Source of the DNA: a virus
Lineage: Duplodnaviria > Heunggongvirae > Uroviricota > Caudoviricetes
Strand: one strand, 5' to 3'
Length of the DNA stretch: 64,000 nucleotides
Virus record (IMG/VR): IMGVR_UViG_3300042401_001499
Both the position numbers and the translations under genes were made by a program. Positions 26,780 through 43,579 of the stretch are shown here, in pieces. Position 1 is the first letter of the stretch; each line of letters begins with the position of its first letter. Below the pieces are notes generated by a model. It made no database searches. It saw only the letters and a list, made by a program, of their open reading frames with translations, and was not told the origin of the DNA.

Positions 26780-27103
26780 ATGGCTAGAGATACAATGGAA
26801 AAGAAACTTTTTATCGAAAGCATAATCCTTTTAAGAGAGATAGAAGATAGAAGAGACTTTATGGAGGAAGAGATTGGAATGGATATGTCTATGTATGAAG
26901 AGAAGTTCTTACAGATTATAGAGAATCTATTTAAAGTTCATTTTACAAAAGAACAATTTGCTTTAATACAATACTACCTATATAAAGTTCCGGAGATTGA
27001 AGATTGGGATGGAAAGATTGATATTACAGACGGAAAGGAAATGATTACTGTTGACTTTGAAACTCCTGATCAAGTATGGAATGTTATATCCAGCTTAAAA
27101 TAA
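26780..27103 (+). CDS. Hypothetical protein (start moved to the internal ATG after the upstream stop)
   Basis: Track ORF 26705 overlaps the upstream gene. ATG at 26780 is in frame and non-overlapping. Confidence 0.4.
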   Translation: MARDTMEKKLFIESIILLREIEDRRDFMEEEIGMDMSMYEEKFLQIIENLFKVHFTKEQFALIQYYLYKVPEIEDWDGKIDITDGKEMITVDFETPDQVWNVISSLK

Positions 27104-27114
27104 ATAAGAAAATA

Positions 27115-27151
27115 GTTGCTAGATAAGACTATTGTTCGTATATTTAGGTAT
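27115..27151 (+). promoter_or_regulatory. Conserved phage promoter, copy 1 (AGTTGC - ~20 nt - TATATTTAGGTAT)
   Basis: First of more than 21 near-identical copies. Bacteroidetes-type -33 TTG / -7 TAnnTTT architecture. Gene ATG at 27173. Confidence 0.6.
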
Positions 27152-27172
27152 AAATAATAAATTAAAACGGTT

Positions 27173-27580
27173 ATGAGCTTAGAACAAATTAAATGTACAA
27201 GGTGTAGGAATGATATGCCTAAACTTAGATTGGACAATTACGGATACGATTTCTGTATAGAATGTTCAGATGTAAAGCCTAAGGTAGGACGTATTAGAGT
27301 AGTTGGGGAAGGAGACTATACAGTCACTGAACTTGATATCTTAGACCAGGATACAGCTAGAAGACTTCAAGAGCTGGAGAATACCTCTAGAGGAGTTAGA
27401 AATGTTCCATTAGAGATCTTAAACTTTGATGAGGATGAAATGTCTGACGACAGTAGAGCAATCTCAGAAGCTACAGACAAAGCATTAGAAGGTGAATTAG
27501 AAGTCTTAGATGATGAAGAAGACTTAGAAGACCTAGAAGATGTTGAAGATGTAGAGCTTGAAGACGAAGACGACGAATAG
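27173..27580 (+). CDS. Zinc-ribbon protein with a highly acidic Asp/Glu-rich C-terminal tail
   Basis: CTRCRN ... CIEC C4 ribbon (DksA/TraR-like). Last 40 aa are almost entirely D/E/L. Confidence 0.5.
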   Translation: MSLEQIKCTRCRNDMPKLRLDNYGYDFCIECSDVKPKVGRIRVVGEGDYTVTELDILDQDTARRLQELENTSRGVRNVPLEILNFDEDEMSDDSRAISEATDKALEGELEVLDDEEDLEDLEDVEDVELEDEDDE

Positions 27581-28234
27581 ATGCCACCACCAAAATTCAT
27601 ATCGAAAGATGATTGCTTAAGAGCAATGCAAAATACTAGAAGTAACCGAGGAGCAGCTCGGTTTCTTCGATGTAGCTTTGTACACTATAAGAAGTATGCT
27701 AGAACGTATGTTAATGATCAAGGAGTAACTCTATGGGAGGCTCATAAGAATCAATCAGGCATAGGTATTCCTAAATATCTTCCTAACAAAGGTAAGCAAG
27801 CACCTCTTAAAGAATTGATTGAAGGGAAGATATCAGTAGCTTCTTTTGAGCCGGCTAAGATCAAACAGAGATTAATCTTTGAAGGCTATTTAAAAGAGGA
27901 ATGTAATCGATGTGGCTTTCATGAAGAGAGAGTAACAGATCATAAGATACCTTTGATACTTCAATTTAGAGATAAGAACAAAGTCAACTACGAGCTTTCT
28001 AATATAGAGCTTATGTGTTACAATTGCTCTTTCCTATACTCTGTATCACCTATCACCGATAGACAAGTAGCAGCAGCAGAGGATTCTGTAGACAGACAAG
28101 TAAGAGATTTTGATTGGGAGGTAGATGATGCAATGAAAGAGCATTTAGAATCATTAGGACTTTGGAATGAAGTACCAACAGATGGTTCACAATACATCTC
28201 AGAAAACTATAAAGGGAATGAAAAAGAAGACTAA
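27581..28234 (+). CDS. HNH-type endonuclease-like protein
   Basis: CNRCGFHEERVTDHKIP ... N ... CYNC resembles the HNH beta-beta-alpha-Me motif. Confidence 0.45.
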   Translation: MPPPKFISKDDCLRAMQNTRSNRGAARFLRCSFVHYKKYARTYVNDQGVTLWEAHKNQSGIGIPKYLPNKGKQAPLKELIEGKISVASFEPAKIKQRLIFEGYLKEECNRCGFHEERVTDHKIPLILQFRDKNKVNYELSNIELMCYNCSFLYSVSPITDRQVAAAEDSVDRQVRDFDWEVDDAMKEHLESLGLWNEVPTDGSQYISENYKGNEKED

Positions 28235-28345
28235 GCCCTCTAGGGAGAGAATTGTAGCTAACAAGCTTGTCAAACAATCTGAACAGAATGAAAAGCTGAG
28301 AGAGAAAACAATTAGTAATTCTTTTTGGAAATTATTTAGGAAATA

Positions 28346-28382
28346 GTTGCTAGAACAAACCTTTGTTCGTATATTTAGGTAT
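28346..28382 (+). promoter_or_regulatory. Conserved phage promoter, copy 2
   Basis: AGTTGCTAGAACAAACCTTTGTTCGTATATTTAGGTATGG. The ATG directly replaces the usual leader. Confidence 0.55.
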
Positions 28383-28707
28383 GGAAAAAACAGGTGCAAC
28401 AGTAAAGAAGCTTCATGACTTTAATACCTCAGGAGTATTAGAAGTATGTATAAAAGGTAACTGGTATAGGACTACTTGTAATGATTTTAGATCATTCGAT
28501 GGTAAGAGAAGAATAACTGAGCCAATCAAACAGCCAGGTATAGGGGATAGTTTTAATGATATAGAATTTAAGACCTATGACTATAACGGTCCAGTATATG
28601 TTCTTCAAACAAACTTAGAAGTAATCAGAATGGATACAGAGACAATTGTAACTAATCCATATATTGAATCAACACAAAAATCTTTACCTAACAGCAATCG
28701 TATATGA
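28381..28707 (+). CDS. Hypothetical protein (start at ATG 28381, probably leaderless)
   Basis: The track start at 28363 lies inside the promoter -7 element. ATG 28381 is in frame. Confidence 0.4.
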   Translation: MEKTGATVKKLHDFNTSGVLEVCIKGNWYRTTCNDFRSFDGKRRITEPIKQPGIGDSFNDIEFKTYDYNGPVYVLQTNLEVIRMDTETIVTNPYIESTQKSLPNSNRI

Positions 28708-29000
28708 AAAAATTAGTATTCAGATCCACAGATGAATTCTCAGAATTCTTTAAAGGAAAGAGCCCAGAGCTTACAAATGCAATAGTACATTCTATAAGAG
28801 AGGCTTTCATGTTTCATAAGAAGACAGCCAATCTATTTGAGATTACTTTTGATGAGAGTGATTCCGTATTTGAAATATCGCTATCGCATAAGGAATGGAT
28901 AATAGCATTAGAGAATTGTCTTTCTCACTATGAGGAGTGGGAGATGGGAGACGACGCAATAGATACATTTTTATTAATTAAAGAAATAAAAACATGGTAA
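28704..29000 (+). CDS. Hypothetical protein
   Basis: ORF, ATGA-coupled. Confidence 0.4.
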   Translation: MKKLVFRSTDEFSEFFKGKSPELTNAIVHSIREAFMFHKKTANLFEITFDESDSVFEISLSHKEWIIALENCLSHYEEWEMGDDAIDTFLLIKEIKTW

Positions 29001-29248
29001 AGCCTTATACTAAAACATTTACATGTGATATCACAGGAATTATAACGACCTACACTTACAACGGTGCTAGCATTGTAAATGGTATCATAAAAGCAGAGTT
29101 CGAATATCCTAAAGAATACTTAGATGAATTCAATAAAAAGGAAAAAAGACAGAGTAATCTTCCGAAAACAAAACAAATGTTCTTAAATCCTGCAACAGGA
29201 AAAGAAGTGGGATATTACAGAGCTAAGAATTTAGGCCTTGTAAAATAA
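28994..29248 (+). CDS. Hypothetical protein
   Basis: ORF only. Confidence 0.4.
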   Translation: MVKPYTKTFTCDITGIITTYTYNGASIVNGIIKAEFEYPKEYLDEFNKKEKRQSNLPKTKQMFLNPATGKEVGYYRAKNLGLVK

Positions 29249-29270
29249 ATTAAAAAAAGTTTGTATATTA

Positions 29271-29307
29271 GTTGCTAGAACGAATCTTTGTTCGTATATT
29301 TAGGTAT
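29271..29307 (+). promoter_or_regulatory. Conserved phage promoter, copy 3
   Basis: AGTTGCTAGAACGAATCTTTGTTCGTATATTTAGGTAT. Gene ATG at 29333. Confidence 0.6.
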
Positions 29308-29332
29308 AGAAATCAATTAAAAACAATAAGTT

Positions 29333-30157
29333 ATGTTAGCAAAATTCAACACAGGTTTAGATTCTTACCTTTCAAAAGATCAAGTAAAAGCTTTAGCACC
29401 AGTAGCATTCGCTACAGCACCAACAAGTGATAAAGTTAGTAAGGATTACTTACTAGTAAATACTGAGACTATCATCGATGACTTAGAAAAGTTAGGATGG
29501 CTTCCAGTTACAGCCTCTCAAAGAAAGGCTAGAAAGTCTGAAAAGGCTACAATCTTCTCCAAGCACATGGTATCCTTTCAGAATCCAGATCTTATGATCA
29601 AGGGTAAGAATGGTGATGATGCTTTTCCAAGAATCATTTTAACGAACTCCCATGATGGATTTAATTCTTTTCAGTTTAGAATTGGAATCTACAGATTGGT
29701 ATGTTCAAATGGATTGGTAGTAGCTGACGAGGAATTCTCAGCATTCAGAATACGTCACACAGGATATACCTTCGAAGAATTAAGAGGAGTAGTAGCACAA
29801 GCAGTAGCTGATCTTCCTAATAAGGTAATGATTTTAAATCAAATGCAGTTGAGAGAATTGTCTCCAGTAGAGCAAAGACAGTTAGCTATCGATGCAATGC
29901 AATTGAGAACAAATAGAATCGATGCTGTATGGGATGAAGAAACTATTCAAGACGTTTTAACTCCTATAAGAGATGCTGATAAAGGAAATGATCTTTGGAC
30001 AGTCTTTAATGTAATTCAAGAGAAGATTACTCAAGGAGGATATTCAGCAGCATTGAATGGTGCTAAGGTTAGAAAGGTTAGAAAGATCAAATCATTCGAG
30101 AAAGATCTTAAAGTGAATCAAGATTTATTCAAGCTAGCAGTAGCATTAGTAAACTAA
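29333..30157 (+). CDS. DUF932-family protein
   Basis: Size and the conserved stretch ILTNSHDGFNSFQFRIGIYRLVCSNGLV are typical of DUF932. Confidence 0.5.
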   Translation: MLAKFNTGLDSYLSKDQVKALAPVAFATAPTSDKVSKDYLLVNTETIIDDLEKLGWLPVTASQRKARKSEKATIFSKHMVSFQNPDLMIKGKNGDDAFPRIILTNSHDGFNSFQFRIGIYRLVCSNGLVVADEEFSAFRIRHTGYTFEELRGVVAQAVADLPNKVMILNQMQLRELSPVEQRQLAIDAMQLRTNRIDAVWDEETIQDVLTPIRDADKGNDLWTVFNVIQEKITQGGYSAALNGAKVRKVRKIKSFEKDLKVNQDLFKLAVALVN

Positions 30158-30396
30158 TGGATAGAGCAAAGTATATACAGATGAGAAAATCAGGCCAGTA
30201 TGATCTGGCTTGGTTTTACCAATACTTCCTGGAGAATAAGGATAAGAATAGAGTAACACCTCCCTTTGAAATATTTCAACAAGCCTTCAATATGTACTTC
30301 CAAATGAATGGAGCATTTATTCTAGAGCATATGGACAAGAAGATGGATGTATCAAAGATAGAAGATCAACAAGGAAATTTAATATACATAAACTAA
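30157..30396 (+). CDS. Hypothetical protein
   Basis: ORF only. Confidence 0.35.
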   Translation: MDRAKYIQMRKSGQYDLAWFYQYFLENKDKNRVTPPFEIFQQAFNMYFQMNGAFILEHMDKKMDVSKIEDQQGNLIYIN

Positions 30397-30398
30397 AC

Positions 30399-30638
30399 AT
30401 GGAAGGAAAAGTAAAAACACCGAAGGAATTAATGGCAGACTTAAAAGGAAATTACATTCAAGTAATTAAAAAGAATGGAAAGACTCACGATAAGCTTTAT
30501 AAAGATCCTCAGAGAGCAATCAGAGGAGTAGGAGGAGTAGAATATGTAAAGTACTTAAGAGAAGTTCTTAAAGAGCAAGTCAATTCAAGATACACAGAAG
30601 TAGATTCATTAACAGGAACACCAGAAAACGAATTATAA
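30399..30638 (+). CDS. Hypothetical protein
   Basis: ORF only. Confidence 0.35.
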   Translation: MEGKVKTPKELMADLKGNYIQVIKKNGKTHDKLYKDPQRAIRGVGGVEYVKYLREVLKEQVNSRYTEVDSLTGTPENEL

Positions 30639-30844
30639 TGGTAGAAAAAGTAGGATTAGCAGTAATGGCAGCTTTAGGAGTTGCAGTACTAACAGCAGTA
30701 TTATTGGCTTGGCCAACACAGTGGCTTTGGAATAACGCTCTAGTAGGAGCAGTGGATGGAATCAATCCAATAGGATTTTGGCAAGCATTAGGACTTACAT
30801 TCCTTTGCAATATATTATTCAAATCAACATCAAATAGTAAATAA
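30638..30844 (+). CDS. Small two-TM membrane protein
   Basis: Hydrophobic helices LAVMAALGVAVLTAVLLAW and GFWQALGLTFLCNILF. Confidence 0.4.
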   Translation: MVEKVGLAVMAALGVAVLTAVLLAWPTQWLWNNALVGAVDGINPIGFWQALGLTFLCNILFKSTSNSK

Positions 30845-30845
30845 G

Positions 30846-31133
30846 ATGAAGACAAAAACAATTTTAAAAGCAATTGGATTTTTTATAGGATGGTTGTTAT
30901 CATTCCAATTAATAGGTGTGGGAACATATCTAATGAATCAACCAAGCAATCTTTCATTTACATTTGGAGTATTAGCAGCACTATCAACAATTGGAGCCAT
31001 AGGGTACTTTGCATGGAACTTAGGAGGGTACATGGGTAAGTTATCAAAGGAGTATCTAGAGAGTAAAGAAGTTAAGCAAGAAGAGCCTGAGCAAGAAGTA
31101 GAAGAAGAAGTTAAACAAGTTAAACAAGAATAG
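30846..31133 (+). CDS. Small membrane protein with acidic C-terminal tail
   Basis: Two transmembrane helices and an EEPEQEVEEEVKQ tail. Confidence 0.4.
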   Translation: MKTKTILKAIGFFIGWLLSFQLIGVGTYLMNQPSNLSFTFGVLAALSTIGAIGYFAWNLGGYMGKLSKEYLESKEVKQEEPEQEVEEEVKQVKQE

Positions 31134-31135
31134 TT

Positions 31136-31498
31136 ATGGTATTTTTAATAGTAGTTTTAGTAGTACTGCTGCTTATATTCACAATAGTACTGGGAATATT
31201 TTTAGCAGAGAATGACGGTATATTAGATGACCAAACCGTAAAAGATTATCTAGATAAATTAGGAGATAGCTTTAACGTATACATCTCAGAATACACTCAC
31301 AGAATAGATCCAACATATTCAGCAAATGTAAAGAAGAGTATTGAACAATCTCCTGCAGTAATTCGATTAGTTTTCCCATATCACATAGAGTATGTAGGAG
31401 CAATTCCAGCATGGAGTAAATCAAAGCCTAGAATTGATGCAATGTTTGGACAAGGAACAAAAAGCAATTGGAAGAGAAAAAAATTAGGATTAGAGTAG
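31136..31498 (+). CDS. N-terminally anchored membrane protein
   Basis: Transmembrane helix VFLIVVLVVLLLIFTIVLGIFLA. Confidence 0.4.
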   Translation: MVFLIVVLVVLLLIFTIVLGIFLAENDGILDDQTVKDYLDKLGDSFNVYISEYTHRIDPTYSANVKKSIEQSPAVIRLVFPYHIEYVGAIPAWSKSKPRIDAMFGQGTKSNWKRKKLGLE

Positions 31499-31518
31499 AT
31501 TTATCGAAGTAAGTTTCG

Positions 31519-31531
31519 TATCTTTAAGTAT
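31519..31531 (+). promoter_or_regulatory. Variant promoter -7 box (TATCTTTAAGTAT)
   Basis: Degenerate copy of the conserved -7/leader core. Gene ATG at 31580. Confidence 0.35.
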
Positions 31532-31579
31532 TATTAAAAACAAATAAAAGTAAACAATTAAATTTAAACAAAAGTAGTT

Positions 31580-32457: not shown

Positions 32458-32487
32458 AAAAAGGCTTGCTTATGTGAGCCTTTTTTC
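32458..32487 (+). terminator. Rho-independent terminator
   Basis: AGGCT - 10-nt loop - AGCCT followed by TTTTTT. Confidence 0.55.
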
Positions 32488-32488
32488 T

Positions 32489-32501
32489 TATCTTTAAGTA
32501 T
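32489..32501 (+). promoter_or_regulatory. Variant promoter -7 box (TATCTTTAAGTAT)
   Basis: Same variant as at 31519. Directly follows a terminator and precedes a small ORF. Confidence 0.35.
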
Positions 32502-32523
32502 TAGAAACAAACAAATAAAGGTT

Positions 32524-34867: not shown

Positions 34868-34884
34868 AAATAACTTAAAATAAA

Positions 34885-34921
34885 GTTGCCTAACATAACT
34901 ATTGTTCGTATCTTTAGGTAT
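34885..34921 (+). promoter_or_regulatory. Conserved phage promoter, copy 4 (TATCTTTAGGTAT variant)
   Basis: AGTTGCCTAACATAACTATTGTTCGTATCTTTAGGTAT immediately right of the iterons. Confidence 0.55.
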
Positions 34922-34942
34922 AAAGATAAAAAAACAGACACT

Positions 34943-35155: not shown

Positions 35156-35269
35156 ACACTATGAAGACAATTCAATTTACCATGCAAGAGAGATGGGCTG
35201 CCTCACGGCATACCGTACAGAAGTCTAAGAAGACCTACAACAGGAAGGAGAAGCACTCCTCAAAGAAAC

Positions 35270-35297
35270 AGGGGCCTCAAAAGGGTCCCTTTTATTA
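35270..35297 (+). terminator. Rho-independent terminator
   Basis: AGGGGCC - loop - GGTCCCT (7 bp including one G-U) followed by TTTTATTA. Confidence 0.45.
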
Positions 35298-35465
35298 TAC
35301 CTAAAGCTTTGCTTTAAGTGCCAGGACCAGTTAAAGCATCACTTTAAGTTAAAGCATCACTTTAAGTGGGTATGAAACAGTAGTGTGTATTACCTACTAC
35401 AGAATATAAGGTACCGGCCCGTCTACTCTTCCGACTCTCTTTCAAGATCAGGCCCCTTATCCTTC
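35298..35465 (-). ncRNA. Putative non-coding RNA transcribed leftward from the minus-strand promoter
   Basis: A full-consensus promoter on the minus strand points into ~170 nt. That stretch has no ORF longer than 3 codons on either strand and contains the 18-mer tandem repeat. Confidence 0.3.
35331..35366. repeat. Perfect tandem duplication of an 18-mer (TTAAAGCATCACTTTAAG x2)
   Basis: Exact direct repeat. Lies inside the antisense transcript region. Confidence 0.8.
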
Positions 35466-35469
35466 TAAC

Positions 35470-35507
35470 ATACCTAAAGATACGAACATAACTCCTCTCT
35501 AGCAACT
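35470..35507 (-). promoter_or_regulatory. Conserved phage promoter, minus-strand copy (only one in the window)
   Basis: The reverse complement reads AGTTGCTAGAGAGGAGTTATGTTCGTATCTTTAGGTATG. Confidence 0.55.
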
Positions 35508-35556: not shown

Positions 35557-35593
35557 AGTTGCCTCCTATGTACTTATTCCTTATCTTTAGGTA
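35557..35593 (+). promoter_or_regulatory. Conserved phage promoter, copy 6
   Basis: AGTTGCC ... CTTATCTTTAGGTATCAATAATTAAAACA. Gene ATG at 35618. Confidence 0.55.
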
Positions 35594-35617
35594 TCAATAA
35601 TTAAAACAATAAAGGTC

Positions 35618-35872: not shown

Positions 35873-35873
35873 A

Positions 35874-35910
35874 GTTGCTTAATTAAATTATAGTTCATAT
35901 ATTTAGGTAT
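35874..35910 (+). promoter_or_regulatory. Conserved phage promoter, copy 7
   Basis: AAATAAAGTTGC ... TAGTTCATATATTTAGGTAT. Confidence 0.6.
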
Positions 35911-35933
35911 CAATAATTAAAACGACATATATT

Positions 35934-36149: not shown

Positions 36150-36150
36150 A

Positions 36151-36187
36151 GTTGCTCGTTTAAATTAAAGTTCATATATTTAGGTAT
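36151..36187 (+). promoter_or_regulatory. Conserved phage promoter, copy 8
   Basis: Consensus copy. Confidence 0.6.
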
Positions 36188-36210
36188 CAATAATTAAAAC
36201 GACATATATC

Positions 36211-36606: not shown

Positions 36607-36609
36607 ATA

Positions 36610-36646
36610 GTTGCTCGTTTAAATTATAGTTCATATATTTAGGTAT
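36610..36646 (+). promoter_or_regulatory. Conserved phage promoter, copy 9
   Basis: Consensus copy. Confidence 0.6.
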
Positions 36647-36668
36647 CAATAATTAAAACAATATAGAA

Positions 36669-36905
36669 ATGGAAAATCAAGAAATTAAAGATTATGTTTT
36701 AGATTTTATTTTTGATGATATGGATGTATTTGAAGATTGTACTTCAAAGAAATCTTTCATTGAACTTGCTATTACTATTTTAGATGCAAATCTTTTAGCT
36801 GAGTTTGATTTCAAGGGGGAAGATTTAAGCCAAGATCTCCAATATGAATTCTTAGAAGGGGTAAAAGTTGAATGGAAAATATTTAAAAAATTAAATGGAT
36901 TATAG
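36669..36905 (+). CDS. Hypothetical acidic small protein
   Basis: ORF behind a promoter copy. Confidence 0.45.
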   Translation: MENQEIKDYVLDFIFDDMDVFEDCTSKKSFIELAITILDANLLAEFDFKGEDLSQDLQYEFLEGVKVEWKIFKKLNGL

Positions 36906-36941
36906 TTGTTTAATTGAATCTTAGTTCGTATATTTAGGTAT
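36905..36941 (+). promoter_or_regulatory. Conserved phage promoter, copy 10
   Basis: Consensus copy with GTTGT at -33. Confidence 0.55.
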
Positions 36942-36964
36942 CAATAATTAAAACAATATAAACT

Positions 36965-37246: not shown

Positions 37247-37247
37247 A

Positions 37248-37284
37248 GTTGCTCGTTTAAATTTTTATTCATATATTTAGGTAT
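37248..37284 (+). promoter_or_regulatory. Conserved phage promoter, copy 11
   Basis: Consensus copy. Confidence 0.6.
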
Positions 37285-37307
37285 CAATAATTAAAACATA
37301 TAAAAAC

Positions 37308-37580: not shown

Positions 37581-37587
37581 AAAAATA

Positions 37588-37624
37588 GTTGCCTCTTCGG
37601 AGGCAATTTACTATCTTTAGGTAT
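37588..37624 (+). promoter_or_regulatory. Conserved phage promoter, copy 12, with embedded UUCG-tetraloop hairpin
   Basis: GTTGCCTCTTCGGAGGC ... TATCTTTAGGTATCATTAATTAAAACA. GCCTC-TTCG-GAGGC at 37591-37604. Confidence 0.55.
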
Positions 37625-37647
37625 CATTAATTAAAACAATATAAGTT

Positions 37648-37975: not shown

Positions 37976-38003
37976 AAATAAATTAAAAATAAATAATAAA
38001 ATA

Positions 38004-38040
38004 GTTGTTAGATTAAATTAATGTTCGTATATTTAGGTAT
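38004..38040 (+). promoter_or_regulatory. Conserved phage promoter, copy 13
   Basis: Consensus copy. Confidence 0.6.
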
Positions 38041-38063
38041 CAATAATTAAAACATATAACATT

Positions 38064-38840
38064 ATGACAAGAATTCAAATTTTAGAAGATCAAAAAGCAA
38101 TCTTCGTAGCACAGAAAGAAGTATTAGAAAACAAAAGAGGAGACATTTATGTTAGAGAGCAACAAGCAATCTCAGATGCTTTGCTTCCTTTTTTTTATGA
38201 ATTTTCGGAAGAAGTAGAAATTGAAGTAACTAGAGGATCTGTTTATTTTAAAATGGCTCATCCAGAAGTAACTTACAAGAAAGAATTATTTAATCTTTAT
38301 TTAAGAGAGAATTGGGACGATAGTTTAGCTAAATCTTTTAAAGGAGTTGATCTTTCTTATTATACTACTCAAACAAAAGGGGAGTCAAAATGGGAATTAA
38401 AGAGATTGCAATTGTTAGGAAAGTTAGCTGAGATTGTAGATGAGTTTCAACAAAAAATGGTTTATGTTGTAAACGAAGCTGTATTTCCTTTTAAAGAAGA
38501 ATTCAAAGCAGTTTTTGCTCAAATGGAATTAGTAGGGAAAGCTATTAGAGAATTAGACGTTAAGATTGCATCCTTTGAAAAGGAAGTGATTGAATGGGAA
38601 TTGAGATATGCAAAGATTGAATTTGCAAAAGCAAGAGAGGTTCAAATGAAGTTTAATTATTCTCCAAGAATTGTATCTTTGAAATTATTTGAGTTCTCTA
38701 AATCCGGAAAGAAAGCTACTGCAATCTTTGAATGGGAAAAAGGAAGAGAATCTAGAGAAGAAAATGTAAGCGTTAGTTCCATAGTTGATCAAGTATTTGG
38801 ACTACGTAAAGATATTGTTCAGCACACTTTAGCTGAATAG
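38064..38840 (+). CDS. Hypothetical protein (258 aa), coiled-coil rich
   Basis: Largest ORF of the small-gene array. Confidence 0.5.
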   Translation: MTRIQILEDQKAIFVAQKEVLENKRGDIYVREQQAISDALLPFFYEFSEEVEIEVTRGSVYFKMAHPEVTYKKELFNLYLRENWDDSLAKSFKGVDLSYYTTQTKGESKWELKRLQLLGKLAEIVDEFQQKMVYVVNEAVFPFKEEFKAVFAQMELVGKAIRELDVKIASFEKEVIEWELRYAKIEFAKAREVQMKFNYSPRIVSLKLFEFSKSGKKATAIFEWEKGRESREENVSVSSIVDQVFGLRKDIVQHTLAE

Positions 38841-38860
38841 TTTTTAATTATTGATCGAAG

Positions 38861-38886: not shown

Positions 38887-38909
38887 GGGTTAAAATAGTT
38901 TGTGAAATA

Positions 38910-38946
38910 GTTGCTAGTTACAATCTTTGTTCGTATATTTAGGTAT
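38910..38946 (+). promoter_or_regulatory. Conserved phage promoter, copy 14
   Basis: Consensus copy. Confidence 0.6.
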
Positions 38947-38967
38947 CAATAATTAAATAGATATATT

Positions 38968-39150
38968 ATGAAAGAAGTTAGAGAGTACTTTGATTTGAAT
39001 TATGGTTATGTTGATCTAGGAGGAATAGATGATCATGTATTAGAGAGTTTTTTATCTCGATCTTATTTGATTGACTTAAGTTTTATAAGAAAGATGGATT
39101 GTTTATACGATTATATTCTTTCTCAGGATTTATGTAATGTTCAAGAATAA
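38968..39150 (+). CDS. Hypothetical small protein
   Basis: ORF behind a promoter copy. Confidence 0.4.
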   Translation: MKEVREYFDLNYGYVDLGGIDDHVLESFLSRSYLIDLSFIRKMDCLYDYILSQDLCNVQE

Positions 39151-39176
39151 TTAATAATAATTTAAAAAATAAGACT

Positions 39177-39530
39177 ATGACTAAATTATTCAGAGATGTA
39201 AACTACTACATCGTACAAGCTTCTAATAGCACACAGAGAGAATTTGAATTGGACTTCGCAGATGTCATAGAGGTCTATGATACAAATTCCATAACTTTAA
39301 CTACTGAAGATAAAAGAGAGGTAGTTATTAGTTGGGATGAAAAAGGTTATTTTAAATCTTACTTCATACAGGAAGAAACAATACTAATGAGATCACATCC
39401 GGGAATGGTAGAAGAAGTAATCTCTATGTTAAGACATATGGAGATAGATGGAGAAACAATGGAGTACATTCTAGATAAAGTAGGAATGACAGATCAAATG
39501 TTAAAACAACTCTCAGGGAAATACTTATAA
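39177..39530 (+). CDS. Hypothetical protein
   Basis: ORF with no dedicated promoter copy; probably co-transcribed. Confidence 0.4.
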   Translation: MTKLFRDVNYYIVQASNSTQREFELDFADVIEVYDTNSITLTTEDKREVVISWDEKGYFKSYFIQEETILMRSHPGMVEEVISMLRHMEIDGETMEYILDKVGMTDQMLKQLSGKYL

Positions 39531-39535
39531 AAAAA

Positions 39536-39572
39536 GTTGCTAGTTACAAAGTTAGTTCATATATTTAGGTAT
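39536..39572 (+). promoter_or_regulatory. Conserved phage promoter, copy 15
   Basis: Consensus copy. Confidence 0.6.
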
Positions 39573-39595
39573 CAATAATTAAAACAATATAAATC

Positions 39596-39832
39596 ATGGC
39601 TACATTAATCAAAGATCAAAAAGAAGTTACATTTGCACAAGGAGAGAGAGTTCAATTCAGAATGTTAGATTCTAAAGCTCCTGGAGATAATTACTCTCCA
39701 CCACAAAAGACAGTTTATGGAACAGTTGGAAATATAAACAAAGTTTCAATGATTGTTCAAGGAGTGGATGGAAATCTATATAGAGTAATGAAGAATGAAG
39801 TTAAAAAATATGTTGATCCTTTTGCAAAATAA
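39596..39832 (+). CDS. Hypothetical small protein
   Basis: ORF behind a promoter copy. Confidence 0.45.
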   Translation: MATLIKDQKEVTFAQGERVQFRMLDSKAPGDNYSPPQKTVYGTVGNINKVSMIVQGVDGNLYRVMKNEVKKYVDPFAK

Positions 39833-39833
39833 A

Positions 39834-39870
39834 GTTGCTAGTTACAAAGTTAGTTCATATATTTAGGTAT
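39834..39870 (+). promoter_or_regulatory. Conserved phage promoter, copy 16
   Basis: Consensus copy. Confidence 0.6.
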
Positions 39871-39890
39871 CAATAATTAAAACAAACAAT

Positions 39891-40070
39891 ATGAAAAATT
39901 CAATTAGATTACAAAGTTCAATTTACATTTACGATGTAGAGTTTGATGAAGTTCAATATGAAGTTCAAGTAACAGATGGAGTAATAAGTGCTATGTATAG
40001 ATCAGATGGCTTCAATATTTCAGGGGTAGAGGGAGAAGACCTTAGGGATTTTATCTACAATAATAAGTAA
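39891..40070 (+). CDS. Small hypothetical protein (59 aa)
   Basis: ATG at 39891 to TAA at 40068-40070. Sits behind a promoter copy. Not in the track. Confidence 0.4.
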   Translation: MKNSIRLQSSIYIYDVEFDEVQYEVQVTDGVISAMYRSDGFNISGVEGEDLRDFIYNNK

Positions 40071-40077
40071 AAATAAA

Positions 40078-40114
40078 GTTGCTAGTTACAATTAAAGTTC
40101 ATATATTTAGGTAT
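40078..40114 (+). promoter_or_regulatory. Conserved phage promoter, copy 17 (extended leader)
   Basis: Consensus copy. The leader carries an extra AATTAATCAATCAATAATTAAAAACA. Confidence 0.55.
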
Positions 40115-40150
40115 CAAAATTAATCAATCAATAATTAAAAACAAAACATT

Positions 40151-40489
40151 ATGAAAAAAGTAAATGTATTAGAGTCAGTTCAAAATTCAGTTAGTTCAAT
40201 CTTTAGTAAAGAAGATGTAATCAATCTTATCAATTCAATTGAAGGAGAAGGAGGAAGAGTTATTACAGTTACAGAAATTGGAGCAGCTATTGATAGATTA
40301 GTTGATAGCTTGGAAAATAATGAAGATGAAATAGTTGATACAGATTCAGTAGAGTTCAGTATTGCTTATGATAATCGAATTGAAGTTGATAGGGTAAGAG
40401 TAAACTTTGATTACATCAGAGAAGCTCTTGAAAATACTTTTATGGACTTTGGTGAAGCTGAAGAAGAAGTTACAGAAAATGAATTGTAA
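40151..40489 (+). CDS. Acidic hypothetical protein
   Basis: ORF behind a promoter copy. Strongly D/E-rich. Confidence 0.45.
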   Translation: MKKVNVLESVQNSVSSIFSKEDVINLINSIEGEGGRVITVTEIGAAIDRLVDSLENNEDEIVDTDSVEFSIAYDNRIEVDRVRVNFDYIREALENTFMDFGEAEEEVTENEL

Positions 40490-40494
40490 ATAAA

Positions 40495-40531
40495 GTTGCC
40501 TCTTCGGAGGCTTCTTCTTATCTTTAGGTAT
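40495..40531 (+). promoter_or_regulatory. Conserved phage promoter, copy 18, with embedded UUCG-tetraloop hairpin
   Basis: GCCTC-TTCG-GAGGC at 40498-40511, followed by TATCTTTAGGTATCATTAATTAAAACA. Confidence 0.55.
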
Positions 40532-40554
40532 CATTAATTAAAACATATAACATC

Positions 40555-40752
40555 ATGAAAGAATTTTTCGAAGCACAGTTTAAAATGTTGGACAGAGGAA
40601 TAGTTGCAACTCCTAAAACAAGAGAAGATCTTGAATACTTTGCAAAGGCTAATCAAGGGTCGATGGATATCTTATTAATGCAAATGGCTATGAACTTTGG
40701 TTATAAAATGGCATTAGAGAATGTTCAAGAAGAACTAGAGAAAGTGGCATAG
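40555..40752 (+). CDS. Hypothetical small protein
   Basis: ORF only. Confidence 0.4.
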   Translation: MKEFFEAQFKMLDRGIVATPKTREDLEYFAKANQGSMDILLMQMAMNFGYKMALENVQEELEKVA

Positions 40753-40980
40753 ATGTCTGAGTTGTATAAGAGCTGGAAAGGAAAAGGAAAGAAGGTCGCT
40801 AAGGTCTTCTCTCCGATGGTAGGGATGGTATATCAAGGACAAGATAAGTTCTTTGGAAAGATAGTAATAGGAATGTTAGTCGAGATGTTTGATCAGAACG
40901 ATGAAGCAGTACTAAGAACAAAAGACAATAAATTAATCTCAGTAGATATTAAATCTTTAAAAGCAATCATATGTCATTAA
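40753..40980 (+). CDS. Hypothetical small protein
   Basis: ORF only. Confidence 0.4.
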   Translation: MSELYKSWKGKGKKVAKVFSPMVGMVYQGQDKFFGKIVIGMLVEMFDQNDEAVLRTKDNKLISVDIKSLKAIICH

Positions 40981-41168
40981 ATGTAGATCAAAGATTATCT
41001 TTCACATCCTCTGAAGGAGTAGAGGTAACAGTAAGCCAATATGGAGGCAGTAAGATGGTTCAGTTAACATTGAAAGATGTAGATGAGGATGGAAAGGCAG
41101 TAGCTCTTATCTCTTTCTTAAACAAAGATGAAGTAGTAGCCCTTATAAGTATGCTGGAAGAGATTTAA
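40971..41168 (+). CDS. Hypothetical small protein
   Basis: ORF only. Confidence 0.4.
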   Translation: MSLNVDQRLSFTSSEGVEVTVSQYGGSKMVQLTLKDVDEDGKAVALISFLNKDEVVALISMLEEI

Positions 41169-41174
41169 TAAAGA

Positions 41175-41211
41175 GTTGCTATTCTGTAAAAGAGTTCTTA
41201 TATTTAGGTAT
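41175..41211 (+). promoter_or_regulatory. Conserved phage promoter, copy 19
   Basis: Consensus copy. Confidence 0.55.
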
Positions 41212-41234
41212 CAATAATTAAAAAGAGATACATT

Positions 41235-41483
41235 ATGACAAGAGAAGATTTTATTGCAGGGGTAGAGTTCGAGATTAAAGGCAATTACTTTAAGCTGGAT
41301 AGGGATCAAAGATCTATTACAAAGGTCTTTAGAACATCTGATAGGAGTAGAGTAGTAATGGAGGACTATCATATGAATGTAGAAATGATAGGCAGGGTAA
41401 GGTTTGAATGCTACAGCTACATGATGGGTAGGAAAGTAGAAAGAAGAATTAGGTTTGAGGACCTAGAAGTTTTTAAAGGTTAG
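41235..41483 (+). CDS. Hypothetical small protein
   Basis: ORF behind a promoter copy. Confidence 0.45.
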   Translation: MTREDFIAGVEFEIKGNYFKLDRDQRSITKVFRTSDRSRVVMEDYHMNVEMIGRVRFECYSYMMGRKVERRIRFEDLEVFKG

Positions 41484-41506
41484 TCTTCGGACTAACTTTT
41501 TTTTTG
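41480..41506 (+). terminator. Rho-independent terminator (UUCG-type loop)
   Basis: TTAGTC-TTCG-GACTAA followed by a T10 tract. Confidence 0.7.
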
Positions 41507-41513
41507 ACCGGTG

Positions 41514-41546
41514 GTCAAGGTGACGTCAAGGTGAGGTCAAGTTGAG
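41514..41546. repeat. Three tandem 11-mers (GTCAAGGTGAC / GTCAAGGTGAG / GTCAAGTTGAG)
   Basis: Direct repeats inside a 450-bp non-coding island. Confidence 0.6.
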
Positions 41547-41941
41547 AGAAGTTTGATAGTTAAGTTCCCTCAACGGGTAGCCACTCGGGTATTTGGGCCC
41601 ACATAGAGTTGTATATTTCTGATGAAAATTGAGGTATGGGGGTATATATTTATATATACTATGTAGCTTTAAGAAAGATGTTGTTATGAGCCCAACCTAC
41701 CTAACCTAGTCCCTCCGAAGAAGAATTACTGCTCAAGGTGTCCTCCTTCTTTAAGTTTGGTCTATATAGCTGCTAAACCCTAGCACGGTTACCACCTATA
41801 CCCCTAACCTACCTCTTATGTTGTATTACTATGTGTTTGTTTCTTATATTTAATATAGAACATTTCCAGCAATTCTCCAACTACCCAAGGGATTTTTTCC
41901 GGACAATTTTTCGTTATACAAACATTATATATTTATATAAG

Positions 41942-42355
41942 ATGAAGAAGCTTAATAGTAACGACCTTTTTGATATATTCTCCCAGGGGGATGAAGCTGT
42001 CTATAGAGAAAACCATGTAGAGGAGGTATTGGACAATTCCTTTGTATTATTCGGTATGGTGATAAGAGGGGTAGAGAATTATTTCATCATAGATAAGATC
42101 TATTCAAATAGATACGGAAAAGACTATGCCTCTATGTCCGATTCTATAAAACTAAAGTACTTTAACGGCCTTATTGGATACCTTGAGAGAATCAATCTAT
42201 CACAGTCAGACACGGTTTTAGAACTTGTTGATGAATTCGGACCTCAAGCTATCAAATACGCCTTGGAAGAATTATTAGAATTCTATGAAGAGAGAGAGTA
42301 TTACGAGAAATGTGCAATTATTTTTAAGTTTTACGACCTTTTCTTTAAGAAATAG
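41942..42355 (+). CDS. Hypothetical protein (start moved to ATG 41942)
   Basis: The first 37 codons of the track ORF lie in the AT-rich leader. MKKLNSND starts right after a TATATTTAT-like box. Confidence 0.4.
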   Translation: MKKLNSNDLFDIFSQGDEAVYRENHVEEVLDNSFVLFGMVIRGVENYFIIDKIYSNRYGKDYASMSDSIKLKYFNGLIGYLERINLSQSDTVLELVDEFGPQAIKYALEELLEFYEEREYYEKCAIIFKFYDLFFKK

Positions 42356-42391
42356 TTGCTAGAAGTGACCTTTATTCGTATATTTAGGTAT
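42355..42391 (+). promoter_or_regulatory. Conserved phage promoter, copy 20
   Basis: Consensus copy. Confidence 0.6.
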
Positions 42392-42415
42392 AGAAATCAA
42401 TTAAACAAATAGGTT

Positions 42416-42610
42416 ATGGAAAATTTAATTTTAAACATCGCAATTGGTTATTTCATTACAGGGGGGATTCTTTCAGTTATTACCGACATCTCTATAAGAT
42501 TGATCAAGGTAAGCCCTCCATTCACATTCAAGGATGTAATCATTGTTGCCCTCATCTGGCCGACGGTTATATCTGTATTGGTAACGGATTACTTAAACGG
42601 AGATTTTTAA
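42416..42610 (+). CDS. Small two-TM membrane protein, paralog 1
   Basis: DISIRxxKxSxPFTF ... WP ... NGD(F/Y) is shared with the next ORF. Confidence 0.5.
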   Translation: MENLILNIAIGYFITGGILSVITDISIRLIKVSPPFTFKDVIIVALIWPTVISVLVTDYLNGDF

Positions 42611-42795
42611 TGATAGTAGATTACATGTTAACATACCTCGGTATAGGTGTTTTTATATACATTCTATCGGATATCTCCATTCGGGAGATGAAAACAAGTG
42701 AACCTTTTACTTTTATAGAGATAATATCATGTGTGTTATTCTGGCCTTTTGTAGTGTTTGCTTTTATAAGAGAATTTTTTAATGGAGATTATTAA
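42610..42795 (+). CDS. Small two-TM membrane protein, paralog 2 (tandem duplicate)
   Basis: Clear paralog of the 42416 ORF. ATGA-coupled. Confidence 0.5.
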   Translation: MIVDYMLTYLGIGVFIYILSDISIREMKTSEPFTFIEIISCVLFWPFVVFAFIREFFNGDY

Positions 42796-42810
42796 TTAAA
42801 CAAATAAGTT

Positions 42811-43443
42811 ATGTATAAAGACAAAATAAGTATGGGAGAGGCCATGTCTCTTGAATTATTAGGAGAGATTACAATTGTTGATGCTTCGCCAGAGTCTGCC
42901 ACCCCTTTTGGAGAAAACGGAAAACAGTGGAAAGAAGCATTTATAAAACTACAATCCAAACACAGGCATATATCCCCAGATAAACTCCTTAACTTCCTTT
43001 CGGCAAAATACCTTATAGAGGTATCTGAAGGCATAGTGGATACAGATAGTAATACTTATTCCTGGAGATATTTCCATGGTATAGAGAATAGACAAATAAA
43101 AGAGAAATCTAAAGATAATATCGAGTATGTCTATATTCTGGTTAATCCGGGTTATCCTTCCTTGGTTAAGATAGGAATGACCATTAAGGAAGTTCATAGC
43201 AGAGTCACGTCAATTAACGCTACTGCGACAGTTGAGGAGTGGGTTCCAAAATTTGCTCTTCCGGTAGAGAAAGGTACTGCCTTTTATGTAGAACAGGCTG
43301 TTCACACTTTCTTTGCCCCTGTAAGGGTTTCTTCCGATCTTGGTTCTTCAAGAGAGTTTTTTACCCTAGATCCATTAACGGCTTTTGATAAGGTTCGTGA
43401 GGTAGGGGCAGTGTTTGCTATAGGAAATCCTATTACTTATTAA
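42811..43443 (+). CDS. T5orf172 / GIY-YIG-like domain protein
   Basis: YVYILVNPGYPSLVKIGMT ... R ... EWV ... matches the T5orf172 (MUG113) signature. Confidence 0.5.
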   Translation: MYKDKISMGEAMSLELLGEITIVDASPESATPFGENGKQWKEAFIKLQSKHRHISPDKLLNFLSAKYLIEVSEGIVDTDSNTYSWRYFHGIENRQIKEKSKDNIEYVYILVNPGYPSLVKIGMTIKEVHSRVTSINATATVEEWVPKFALPVEKGTAFYVEQAVHTFFAPVRVSSDLGSSREFFTLDPLTAFDKVREVGAVFAIGNPITY

Positions 43444-43525
43444 GGATTAACAGGAAATTAACAGAGGTTAGGCAAGGATATATAAAATCTTGCGCGGCGA
43501 TTCTTCGAAAATAAATTAAAAAATA

Positions 43526-43562
43526 GTTGCCTCCTTTAGTTTTTCTTCTTATATTTAGGTGT
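43526..43562 (+). promoter_or_regulatory. Conserved phage promoter, copy 21 (last; degenerate leader)
   Basis: AGTTGCC ... CTTATATTTAGGTGT. Confidence 0.5.
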
Positions 43563-43579
43563 AATCAAAAAGATATATT

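What the first reader, a model, noticed from the sequence alone, without database searches (positions are those of the whole stretch)
27100..43570. Array of more than 21 near-identical promoter plus leader cassettes, each driving one or a few small ORFs
The ~40-bp unit AGTTGC - 19-21 nt - TATATTTAGGTAT with conserved leader CAATAATTAAAACA recurs before almost every gene from 27.1 to 43.6 kb. It often begins immediately after the preceding stop, within (T)AAATAAAGTTGC. The Bacteroidetes -33 TTG / -7 TAnnTTT geometry fits. Such per-gene promoters on about 40 mostly unannotatable small ORFs are the hallmark of a phage early, host-takeover and anti-defence region. Candidates there include the acidic proteins (27173, 40151), duplicated membrane proteins and DUF proteins. 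The minority variant TATCTTTAGGTATCATTAATTAAAACA co-occurs with embedded UUCG hairpins.
Basis: seen in the sequence. Interest (0 to 1): 0.7.

Follow-up and report, generated by a model that had tools for sequence, protein, structure and literature searches.

The report
Repeated phage promoter-leader cassettes
A Flavobacterium phage carries 22 copies of a standard "promoter plus translation leader" unit in front of small genes of unknown function, and the copies also mark where genes are swapped in and out between related phages; this is a Bacteroidota counterpart of an arrangement already described in T4-like phages.

Summary
TTG-N20-TAT[AC]TTTA[AG] occurs 22 times in the window, against 0.26 expected. 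All copies lie at 27116-43558, 21 on the + strand and one on the - strand, and none is inside a long ORF. The window is an ~82%-identical relative of the 160-kb Flavobacterium myovirus immuto, which has the same array at the syntenic place, as do dozens of IMG/VR contigs (474 distinct cassettes). The geometry matches the Bacteroidota sigma-A -33/-7 promoter. The fixed 22-30 nt, A-rich, unstructured leader carries the Flavobacterium TAAAA signal, with A at -12/-13. The best reading is host-RNA-polymerase, probably early, promoters fused to a standard leader, driving mostly unannotatable small ORFs. They behave like T4-type PeSL cassettes: about 13% carry terminator hairpins across the -33 element or spacer, and gene modules present in one phage and absent in another are bounded by cassettes, including a gene flanked by 51-nt identical cassettes. 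The spacing is invariant. 472 of 474 cassettes have A where host promoters have a near-invariant G (-5). The one minus-strand cassette drives a conserved, structured non-coding RNA with no Rfam match. Timing and transcription start sites are untested. This is a new variant of a known kind, of moderate interest.

The parts
27114..27172 (+). Cassette 1 (AGTTGC-N19-TATATTTAGGTAT + leader) in front of the acidic Cys4 protein gene 27173-27580
   Evidence: (54.2 bits)
28345..28380 (+). Cassette 2. The ATG lies 3 nt after the -7 box because the leader has been deleted relative to immuto and L007, so the mRNA may be leaderless.
29270..29332 (+). Cassette 3, in front of the DUF932 gene and a 7-gene operon
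31494..31579 (+). Decayed cassette (-33 TTG lost, TATCTTTAAGTAT kept) in front of the SPFH/Band_7 gene. It is intact in relative L007.
   Evidence: (20.8 bits)
32464..32523 (+). Cassette 4. A terminator hairpin (32458-32485) encloses the -33 TTG.
34884..34942 (+). Cassette 5 (TATC variant)
35470..35507 (-). The only minus-strand cassette. It has the promoter module alone (no mRNA leader) and drives the non-coding RNA.
   Evidence: (48.4 bits)
35265..35469 (-). Conserved non-coding RNA (~200 nt). Its parts, in order: invariant GGGGCCUG; a hairpin with compensatory changes; invariant GGAAGAGUAGAC; 18-nt A/U hairpin repeats of variable number; a terminator (35270-35290).
   Evidence: z = -3.73; no Rfam match
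35557..35617 (+). Cassette 6. The -33 TTGC forms the loop of a hairpin (GGAG-TTGC-CTCC).
35873..35933 (+). Cassette 7
36150..36210 (+). Cassette 8
36609..36668 (+). Cassette 9
36904..36964 (+). Cassette 10
37247..37307 (+). Cassette 11
37587..37647 (+). Cassette 12. It has a GCCTC-TTCG-GAGGC hairpin in the spacer (terminator-like, 37587-37608).
38003..38063 (+). Cassette 13, in front of the conserved 258-aa gene
38909..38967 (+). Cassette 14
39535..39595 (+). Cassette 15. It shares 55 nt of exact identity with cassette 16.
39833..39890 (+). Cassette 16
40077..40150 (+). Cassette 17 (leader extended by an internal duplication), in front of the acidic 112-aa protein gene
40494..40554 (+). Cassette 18. 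It has a GCCTC-TTCG-GAGGC hairpin in the spacer (40498-40511).
41174..41234 (+). Cassette 19
42354..42415 (+). Cassette 20, in front of the paralogous 2-TM protein pair
43525..43579 (+). Cassette 21, the last of the array (TATATTTAGGTGT)
41475..41500 (+). Free-standing intrinsic terminator (11-bp stem, UUCG loop, T9) that ends the unit started by cassette 19
38814..38841 (+). Terminator-like hairpin at the end of the 258-aa gene

Best explanation
Each unit has two separable modules.

Module 1 is a promoter of the Bacteroidota sigma-A type, read by the host RNA polymerase. From 5' to 3' it has an A-rich upstream tract (often containing the previous stop codon), AGTTGC at -33, a 19-nt variable spacer, and TAT(A/C)TTTA at -12 to -5, followed by GGTAT. 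Transcription would start at the A/T of GGTAT.

Module 2 is a 22-30 nt Shine-Dalgarno-free leader, typically (A)UCAAUAAUUAAAACA. It is unstructured, contains no AUG, and places the TAAAA/A-tract at -15 to -12 and a purine at -3, the features that favour translation initiation in Flavobacterium.

Together the modules give each small ORF, or each short operon, strong and uniform expression. Expression is most likely immediately after infection, because the phage encodes no RNA polymerase of its own (none is annotated in immuto) and has no canonical host-type promoters elsewhere on the coding strand.

About one cassette in five in the window carries a G+C hairpin followed by a T-rich run across the -33 element or spacer. 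Across the clade the figure is 13%. This hairpin would stop transcription coming from upstream.

The copies share 26-55 nt exact cores, so they also serve as substrates for homologous recombination that inserts, deletes and swaps single-gene modules between related phages.

Shown here: the statistics, the placement, the conservation, the cassette-bounded indels and the hairpin covariation. Inferred: recognition by host sigma-A, the position of the transcription start, early timing, terminator activity and the effect of the leader on translation.
For: Enrichment and confinement:
- 22 copies against 0.26 expected.
- In the complete 160-kb relative, 23 of 31 PWM hits fall in 60.9-76.2 kb, the syntenic region.

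Placement:
- 0 of 22 copies lie in ORFs.
- The distance from the end of the -7 box to the ATG is 25-30 nt in 17 of 21.
- The previous stop codon ends 0-12 nt before the TTG in 13 of 21.
- In the collected relatives, 549 of 592 cassettes lie on the majority strand of their contig.

Match to host signals:
- The consensus is -33 TTTG / -7 TAnnTTTG, with the -7 box at -12 to -5 and the transcription start 4-5 nt after it.
- The median or mean 5' UTR is 24-33 nt (PMC6847099; PMC9723704).
- Adenines at -3, -6, -12 and -13 promote translation.
- TAAAA has been proposed as the Flavobacterium RBS (PMC2483708).
- In the window, A at -12/-13 occurs in 95% of cassette genes against about 60% of other genes. 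A purine occupies -3 in 100%, there is no upstream AUG, and the mean MFE is -0.41 against -1.7 kcal/mol.

Conservation:
- 474 distinct cassettes from 65 sequences keep AGTTG, TAT[AC]TTTAGGTAT and the leader while the spacer varies. This argues for selection on the boxes rather than simple copying.

Independent check of the promoter role:
- The single minus-strand copy lacks the leader.
- It is followed by a conserved RNA that ends in a terminator whose stem shows compensatory changes across relatives.

Terminator hairpins:
- They occur at 32458, 37587 and 40498.
- 60 of 474 cassettes have such a hairpin.
- Stem variants include GCCTC/GAGGC, GCCCC/GGGGC and GGCCC/GGGCC.

Recombination:
- Homology blocks between the window and immuto start or end inside cassettes.
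- Between immuto and L007, 13 of 26 block ends lie within -28..+62 of a cassette.
- The immuto gp136 module is flanked by cassettes identical over 51 nt and is replaced by one chimeric cassette in L007 and in the window.
- A three-module block (immuto 67655-68738) is likewise replaced by one chimeric cassette.
- The gene-order map shows that variable genes are mostly single-gene modules bounded by cassettes.

Absence of other promoter candidates:
- TTG-N18-21-TAHHTTTG occurs once on the + strand of the window and twice in immuto, at chance level, and never in front of a gene.
Against: - No transcription data exist for this phage group in the library searched, so start sites, strength and timing are all inferred.
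- 472 of 474 cassettes have A at -5, where F. johnsoniae promoters have a nearly invariant G.
- The -33 element is far better conserved than in host promoters. The cassettes are therefore not plain copies of the host consensus and might need a phage factor.
- A scan of 185,579 bacterial and archaeal genomes found the composite motif only 12 times, in scattered taxa and in no Flavobacterium, so there is no evidence that the host uses this exact form.
- Block ends at cassettes are partly expected anyway, because cassettes are the conserved islands between diverged genes.
- Most cassettes have no hairpin, so read-through between modules is likely and transcriptional insulation is incomplete.
Confidence: 0.68

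Rival explanations
1. The cassettes are promoters, but of a middle or phage-dependent class. A phage-encoded factor (a sigma-appropriation type activator or a sigma-like protein) reads the unusually conserved AGTTGC and/or GGTAT. This factor would compensate for the non-consensus A at -5, so the array would fire only after some phage protein has been made.
For: A replaces the near-invariant host G at -5 in 472 of 474 cassettes. The -33 hexamer and the 5 nt after the box are much more conserved than in host promoters. The composite motif is absent from Flavobacterium genomes. The genome shows at least two further promoter-like classes: TTG-N-TATATTAWWA in front of replication-type genes, and TATTTATAAT without a -33 element in front of structural genes. 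That suggests a temporal cascade.
Against: A phage without its own RNA polymerase needs some promoters that the unmodified host enzyme can read. No better candidates exist on the coding strand. No sigma-like or MotA/AsiA-like gene was recognised in the array or in the immuto annotation. The first gene of the array (a Cys4 acidic protein, annotated as DksA-like in immuto) is itself behind a cassette.
Confidence: 0.17
2. The repeats are primarily recombination or mobility sites (integron attC-like sites, homing-endonuclease targets or MITE-like elements), and the resemblance to promoters is incidental.
For: Gene modules are gained and lost exactly at the cassettes. HNH (27581) and T5orf172/GIY-YIG-like (42811) genes lie in the array. 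Within one genome the cassettes share their own flavour, for example in L005, which suggests gene conversion.
Against: The two conserved boxes match the host promoter in sequence, spacing (invariant 19 nt) and distance to the ATG. The spacer between them is free to vary, which is the opposite of what a recombinase site or a pure copy process would give. All copies are co-oriented with the genes. The minus-strand copy is followed by a terminated RNA. No integrase or transposase is present in the array. Homologous recombination between 26-55 nt cores explains the indels without a dedicated enzyme.
Confidence: 0.05
3. The conserved leader (AUCAAUAAUUAAAACA) is not only a generic translation start region. 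It is also an RNA operator for a phage-encoded translational repressor or endoribonuclease that shuts off the whole class together, in the manner of T4 RegA or RegB. This adds to the best explanation rather than replacing it.
For: The leader is conserved as a sequence (169 + 63 of 474 cassettes carry C/TAATAATTAAAACA exactly), well beyond the positional A preferences known for Flavobacterium translation. It is absent from the one cassette that drives a non-coding RNA, so it belongs to the mRNA function.
Against: No RegA- or RegB-like protein was identified. A third of the window cassettes have different A-rich leaders. Selection for one optimal unstructured TAAAA-containing leader, together with gene conversion, could suffice.
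Confidence: 0.2

Closest known systems
PeSL (promoter-early stem-loop) cassettes of T4-type phages (Arbiol et al. 2010, PMC2839356; Comeau et al. 2014, PMC4122927)
   Same: Both are ~100-bp composite intergenic units that run from the upstream stop codon in an AT-rich tract, through a strong host-type promoter, to the translation signal and ATG. Both are clustered in hyperplastic regions full of small ORFans. Stem-loops lie between the two promoter boxes or overlap one of them. ORFan modules are bounded by the repeats, with indels between close relatives at the repeats. The phage is a large myovirus with T4-like head and baseplate genes.
   Different: The promoter is of the Bacteroidota -33/-7 type, not sigma-70 -35/-10. 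A conserved A-rich leader with TAAAA replaces the Shine-Dalgarno sequence. Only about 13-20% of the cassettes have a stem-loop, which is a defining part of a PeSL. Mini-circles and promoter or terminator activity were shown experimentally for PeSLs and are untested here.
T4 early promoters (review PMC2988021)
   Same: Both are a large set of very similar strong promoters read by the unmodified host polymerase. They are conserved beyond the host consensus, have an A-rich upstream tract, and sit in front of small non-essential genes.
   Different: The host signal type differs. In this phage one near-invariant host position (-5) is systematically different. Timing is unknown.
Host Flavobacterium sigma-A promoters and translation start regions (PMC6847099, PMC9723704)
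   Same: TTG near -33, TAHHTTT at -12 to -6, a start 4-5 nt after the box, a ~24-33 nt leader, no SD, A at -3/-12/-13 and avoidance of upstream AUG.
   Different: The cassettes have A, not G, at -5. Their -33 hexamer AGTTGC is strongly conserved, whereas in the host the -33 element is weak. They also have a conserved GGTAT around the start, and the leader is conserved as a sequence.
Halovirus HF2 intergenic repeats that carry promoters (PMC8707807)
   Same: Both are repeated intergenic units in a virus genome that were first noticed as repeats. In HF2 they were then shown to be promoters.
   Different: HF2 has an archaeal host and transcription system, and the sequences are unrelated. Only the title and abstract were seen.

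Membership tests
Bacteroidota sigma-A (-33/-7) promoter | -7 element TAnnTTTG (TAHHTTTG), with T-12, A-11, T-8, T-7, T-6 and G-5 nearly invariant | tested here: inconclusive
   Five of the six positions are met in all 22 copies. G-5 is replaced by A in all window copies and in 472 of 474 clade copies.
Bacteroidota sigma-A (-33/-7) promoter | -33 element TTG/TTTG about 19-20 bp upstream of the -7 element | tested here: met
   TTG lies exactly 20 nt before TAT in all 22 copies. The local context is AGTTGC.
Bacteroidota sigma-A (-33/-7) promoter | Transcription starts 4-5 nt downstream of the -7 element | not testable with these tools
   No RNA data are available. Indirect support: the leader length would be 22-26 nt, close to the host median of 24 nt. 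In cassette 2 the conserved start codon sits exactly at the predicted start.
PeSL cassette (T4-type phages) | [quoted passage not shown] | tested here: met
   The sequence-level match and placement are met. Activity was not measured.
PeSL cassette (T4-type phages) | Stable stem-loop (terminator or attenuator) within or overlapping the promoter | tested here: not met
   A stem-loop is present in 4 of 21 + strand window cassettes and in 60 of 474 clade cassettes. The majority have none.
PeSL cassette (T4-type phages) | Located in hyperplastic regions rich in ORFans, with indels between close relatives bounded by the cassettes | tested here: met
   Only 4 of 30 ORFs have a Pfam family.
PeSL cassette (T4-type phages) | Formation of excised mini-circles by recombination between cassettes | not testable with these tools
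   This needs inverse PCR on infected cells or virions.
Phage early (pre-replicative) transcription class | Transcripts appear immediately after infection, independently of phage protein synthesis | not testable with these tools
   No transcriptome for immuto-like phages was found in the library.

The most novel reading that the evidence does not exclude
The cassettes may be a phage-private expression code rather than a copy of the host signal. In this reading the invariant A at -5 plus AGTTGC/GGTAT is read by host polymerase only together with a phage factor, either injected or made first. The sequence-conserved leader is the operator of a phage post-transcriptional switch. The central non-coding hub coordinates the class; that hub comprises the cassette-driven structured RNA with its hairpin repeats, next to two clusters of ACCCGTT iterons. 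This would be a new regulatory circuit for Bacteroidota phages and would include a new RNA family.
Probability: 0.15. Interest if true: 0.7.

Novelty: new variant of a known kind. Interest (0 to 1): 0.42.

Why it matters
Transcription signals of phages that infect Bacteroidota are almost unmapped, and those hosts use a promoter and translation code that differs from the E. coli paradigm. This array gives several hundred natural variants of one promoter-leader design, 474 across relatives. The variants could be used to define what a strong Flavobacterium promoter and leader look like, and to build expression tools for these bacteria. The array also shows that promoter cassettes can act as recombination linkers for ORFan modules outside the T4-like phages of Proteobacteria and with a different promoter type. 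That points to a general way in which large lytic phages turn over accessory genes. The small acidic proteins behind individual cassettes are a ready list of candidates for host-takeover or anti-defence functions. The cassette-driven non-coding RNA is a candidate new RNA family.

Tried and rejected
- tRNA and Rfam searches of the window at gathering thresholds found nothing. An Rfam search at E up to 10 on 34200-35640 gave only noise, none of it on the RNA's strand.
- The E. coli-type promoter scan is uninformative here: 65 found against 78 expected.
- Pfam on 30 ORFs and PHROGs on 10 gave only DUF932, Band_7/SPFH, DUF7352, T5orf172 and a weak HNH. The DksA-like annotation of the immuto orthologue of 27173 was not reproduced at E <= 0.01.
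- No anti-defence family could be assigned. PADLOC was not run.
- The scan of bacterial genomes for the composite motif gave 12 scattered hits, two of them probably mis-binned phage contigs, and none in Flavobacterium. It does not decide between host-type and phage-specific recognition.
- Literature searches for immuto-like phage promoters or transcriptomes found nothing. The Baltic Flavobacterium phage paper does not mention promoters or immuto.
- A realignment of the -7 box that would restore G at -5 (TATTTAGG) loses T-7 and T-6, so it was rejected.
- Treating the array as uniquely hyperplastic was rejected. Colinear DNA coverage against immuto is 60% in the array and 52-60% in the flanks, and a 10.6-kb glycosyltransferase block upstream (15.6-26.2 kb) is entirely replaced.
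- My first automatic gene call put two ORFs on the wrong strand (35945-36175 and 33671-33886). These were corrected by hand.

Full report
**1. What the sequence shows**

- The 13-mer TATATTTAGGTAT with up to two mismatches occurs 31 times, against 7.9 expected.
- The composite pattern TTG-N20-TATMTTTAR occurs 22 times, against 0.26 expected, with at most 2 in any shuffle. All 22 lie between 27116 and 43558, 21 on the + strand and one on the - strand at 35505..35474.
- An alignment of the 21 + copies carries about 70 bits. It reads: A-rich tract, AGTTGC, 19 variable nt (with GTTC[GA] or TTC[TC] at the 3' end), TAT(A/C)TTTAGGTAT, then an A-rich leader.
- The copies score 34-58 bits with a PWM whose best score in shuffled sequence is 10.4. 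A decayed copy without its TTG sits at 31496.
- The distance between the two boxes never varies.
- The end of the -7 box lies 25-30 nt from the ATG in 17 of 21 copies. The previous stop codon ends 0-12 nt before the TTG in 13 of 21. No copy lies inside a long ORF, although 88% of the window is coding.

It is not true for 27.1-35.5 kb, where five intact cassettes head operons of two to nine genes.

**2. Where the window comes from**

- The region is about 82% identical to Flavobacterium phage vB_FspM_immuto. That phage is a 160-kb myovirus with T4-like head and baseplate genes and nearly all genes on one strand.
- In the complete immuto genome, 23 of 31 PWM hits lie at 60.9-76.2 kb, the syntenic region. 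The rest are four near the tRNA genes and four isolated sites.
- Four IMG/VR relatives, found through the conserved 258-aa protein, each have 15-18 cassettes on the gene strand and one on the other strand.
- An exact search for the box-plus-leader 22-mer found 57 stretches in about 40 viral contigs, several of 157-167 kb.
- From all these sequences I collected 474 distinct cassettes. AGTTG, TAT[AC]TTTAGGTAT and C/TAATAATTAAAACA are kept while the spacer varies, and 549 of 592 occurrences lie on the majority strand of their contig.

**3. Why these are promoters with a standard leader**

Published work gives the following picture of the host signals:
- The Bacteroidota/Flavobacterium sigma-A consensus is -33 TTTG / -7 TAnnTTTG.
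- The -7 box lies at -12 to -5, and the start is 4-5 nt after it.
- Leaders have a median or mean length of 24-33 nt (PMC6847099; PMC9723704).
- Translation in Flavobacterium uses no Shine-Dalgarno sequence. It is favoured by A at -3, -6, -12 and -13, by low structure and by the absence of extra AUGs.
- TAAAA has been proposed as the ribosome-binding signal (PMC2483708).

The cassettes fit this picture. With a start at the A/T of GGTAT, the leader is 22-26 nt. In cassette-driven genes, A occupies -12 and -13 in 95%, against about 60% in the other genes of the window. A purine occupies -3 in all of them. No leader contains an AUG. The region from -25 to +20 is essentially unstructured, with a mean of -0.41 against -1.7 kcal/mol.

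The variable spacer between two conserved boxes argues against a simple copy process or a recombinase site.

The minus-strand copy gives an internal control. It has the promoter module but not the leader. It is followed by a conserved RNA that ends in a hairpin plus U run, and that stem changes by compensatory substitutions between phages. So the promoter and leader modules are separable, and the promoter module sits where a transcript begins.

**4. Hairpins**

- In the window, cassettes 4, 6, 12 and 18 have a G+C hairpin that encloses or follows the -33 TTG and is followed by a T-rich stretch. Three of these are picked up by the terminator scan.
- Across the clade, 60 of 474 cassettes have such hairpins, in several designs. 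One is TTG-CCTC-TTCG-GAGG-C, with the variants GCCCC/GGGGC and GGCCC/GGGCC. Another is AAAGRG-TTGC...-CYCTTT, with the TTG in the loop.
- These are most simply terminators for upstream transcription built into the next promoter.
- Free-standing terminators lie at 38814 and 41475.

**5. Cassettes as recombination linkers**

- 69 of 210 cassette pairs in the window share at least 20 nt of exact identity. 36 share at least 26 nt, and the best pair shares 55 nt.
- Homology blocks between the window and immuto begin or end inside cassettes: 36175-36658, 36923-37644, and blocks starting at 37999, 40070 and 41164.
- Between immuto and its relative L007, 13 of 26 block ends fall within -28..+62 of a cassette TTG.
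- Two events are clean. First, the immuto gp136 module is flanked by cassettes identical over 51 nt. In L007 it is replaced by one chimeric cassette, whose upstream side matches the left copy and whose downstream side matches the right copy. The window has the L007 arrangement at 38005. Second, a block of three modules (immuto 67655-68738) is likewise replaced by one chimeric cassette in L007.
- A protein-family order map of five phages shows a conserved scaffold. In it, the variable genes are mostly single-gene modules with a cassette on each side.
- L005 has homogenised its cassettes to its own flavour, as expected from gene conversion.

This is the behaviour described for PeSL cassettes of T4-type phages (PMC2839356, PMC4122927).

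**6. What does not fit the simple picture**

- In 472 of 474 cassettes the base at -5 is A, where F. johnsoniae promoters have a nearly invariant G.
- The canonical TTG...TAHHTTTG form is at chance level on the coding strand of both the window and immuto, and never precedes a gene. The TTTA form is enriched tenfold.
- The -33 hexamer and GGTAT are far more conserved than in host promoters.
- The composite motif was found only 12 times in 185,579 bacterial and archaeal genomes, in scattered taxa and in no Flavobacterium.
- Two other promoter-like classes exist. TTG-N-TATATTAWWA precedes replication-type genes, and TATTTATAAT without a -33 element precedes structural genes.

The phage needs some promoters that the unmodified host enzyme can read, and none better exist. 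I therefore take the cassettes to be that class (probability about 0.68). A phage-factor-dependent class remains possible (about 0.17).

**7. Gene content**

- There are 45 ORFs of 32-285 aa between 27173 and 44233.
- Of the 30 searched in Pfam, only DUF932, Band_7/SPFH, DUF7352 and T5orf172 pass the curated thresholds. PHROGs adds an HNH endonuclease.
- Many single-gene modules encode small acidic proteins with pI 4.1-4.9. The genes at 42416 and 42610 are paralogous two-helix membrane proteins.
- Host-takeover or anti-defence roles are plausible by analogy but were not tested.

**8. Comparison with what is known, and verdict**

The array works like T4 early promoters and PeSL cassettes. It is not a strict PeSL, because most copies lack the stem-loop. 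The promoter is of the Bacteroidota type, and a conserved A-rich leader replaces the Shine-Dalgarno sequence.

I found no description of it in the library.

It is a new variant of a known kind, of moderate interest. The A at -5, the sequence-conserved leader and the cassette-driven non-coding RNA are the parts most worth an experiment.

Noticed in passing
window 35265-35469 (- strand); homologues in L001, L005-L064: A conserved ~100-250 nt non-coding RNA is driven by the only minus-strand cassette. It has invariant GGGGCCUG and GGAAGAGUAGAC, a hairpin with compensatory changes, 0-6 copies of an 18-nt A/U hairpin repeat (ACUUAAAG-N5-CUUUA) and a covarying terminator. Some phages carry two tandem copies. 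There is no Rfam match. The fold z-score is -3.73.
   Followed up: partly
window 34307-34392 and 34682-34857 (ORF-free gap 34302-34886): Two clusters of ACCC(G/A)TT repeats, spaced about 12 nt apart, hold 8 of the 11 exact ACCCGTT copies in the window (1.7 expected). They flank a 290-nt non-coding stretch that is 84% identical to immuto 66464-66730. The arrangement is iteron-like and could be an origin of replication or a regulator-binding array next to the non-coding RNA.
   Followed up: partly
window 28370-28383; L007 1105; immuto 62173: In cassette 2 the leader has been precisely deleted, so the conserved start codon of the 108-aa protein sits 3 nt after the -7 box. This would give a leaderless mRNA if transcription starts at the predicted A.
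   Followed up: partly
immuto 90688, 95200, 117631, 119017, 128591, 130599, 147026, 149201 and others; window 8231, 11530, 41647, 46239: A second recurrent intergenic motif, (A/T)TATTTATA(A/T) without a -33 TTG, lies in front of structural genes. A third motif, TTG-N-TATATTAWWA, lies in front of replication-type genes. These are possibly late and middle promoter classes. One TATTTATAT copy lies inside the array at 41647, upstream of the 174-aa gene.
   Followed up: partly
window and immuto, - strand genome-wide: The canonical host-type TTG-N18-21-TAHHTTTG is enriched on the non-coding strand: 7 against 1.45 expected in the window and 12 against 2.3 in immuto. On the coding strand it is at chance level. 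This could reflect antisense promoters or a codon-composition effect.
   Followed up: no
window 15581-26152: A 10.6-kb block has no DNA similarity to the corresponding immuto segment (53.0-60.0 kb, glycosyltransferase and sugar-modification genes). The whole block has been replaced between the two phages.
   Followed up: no
L066 (CAZKLA010000166.1, 'Aquiluna' MAG) and L072 (CAJBLF010000034.1, 3 cassettes in 3.3 kb): Short contigs binned into bacterial MAGs carry the phage cassette motif. They are probably mis-binned immuto-like phage fragments.
   Followed up: no
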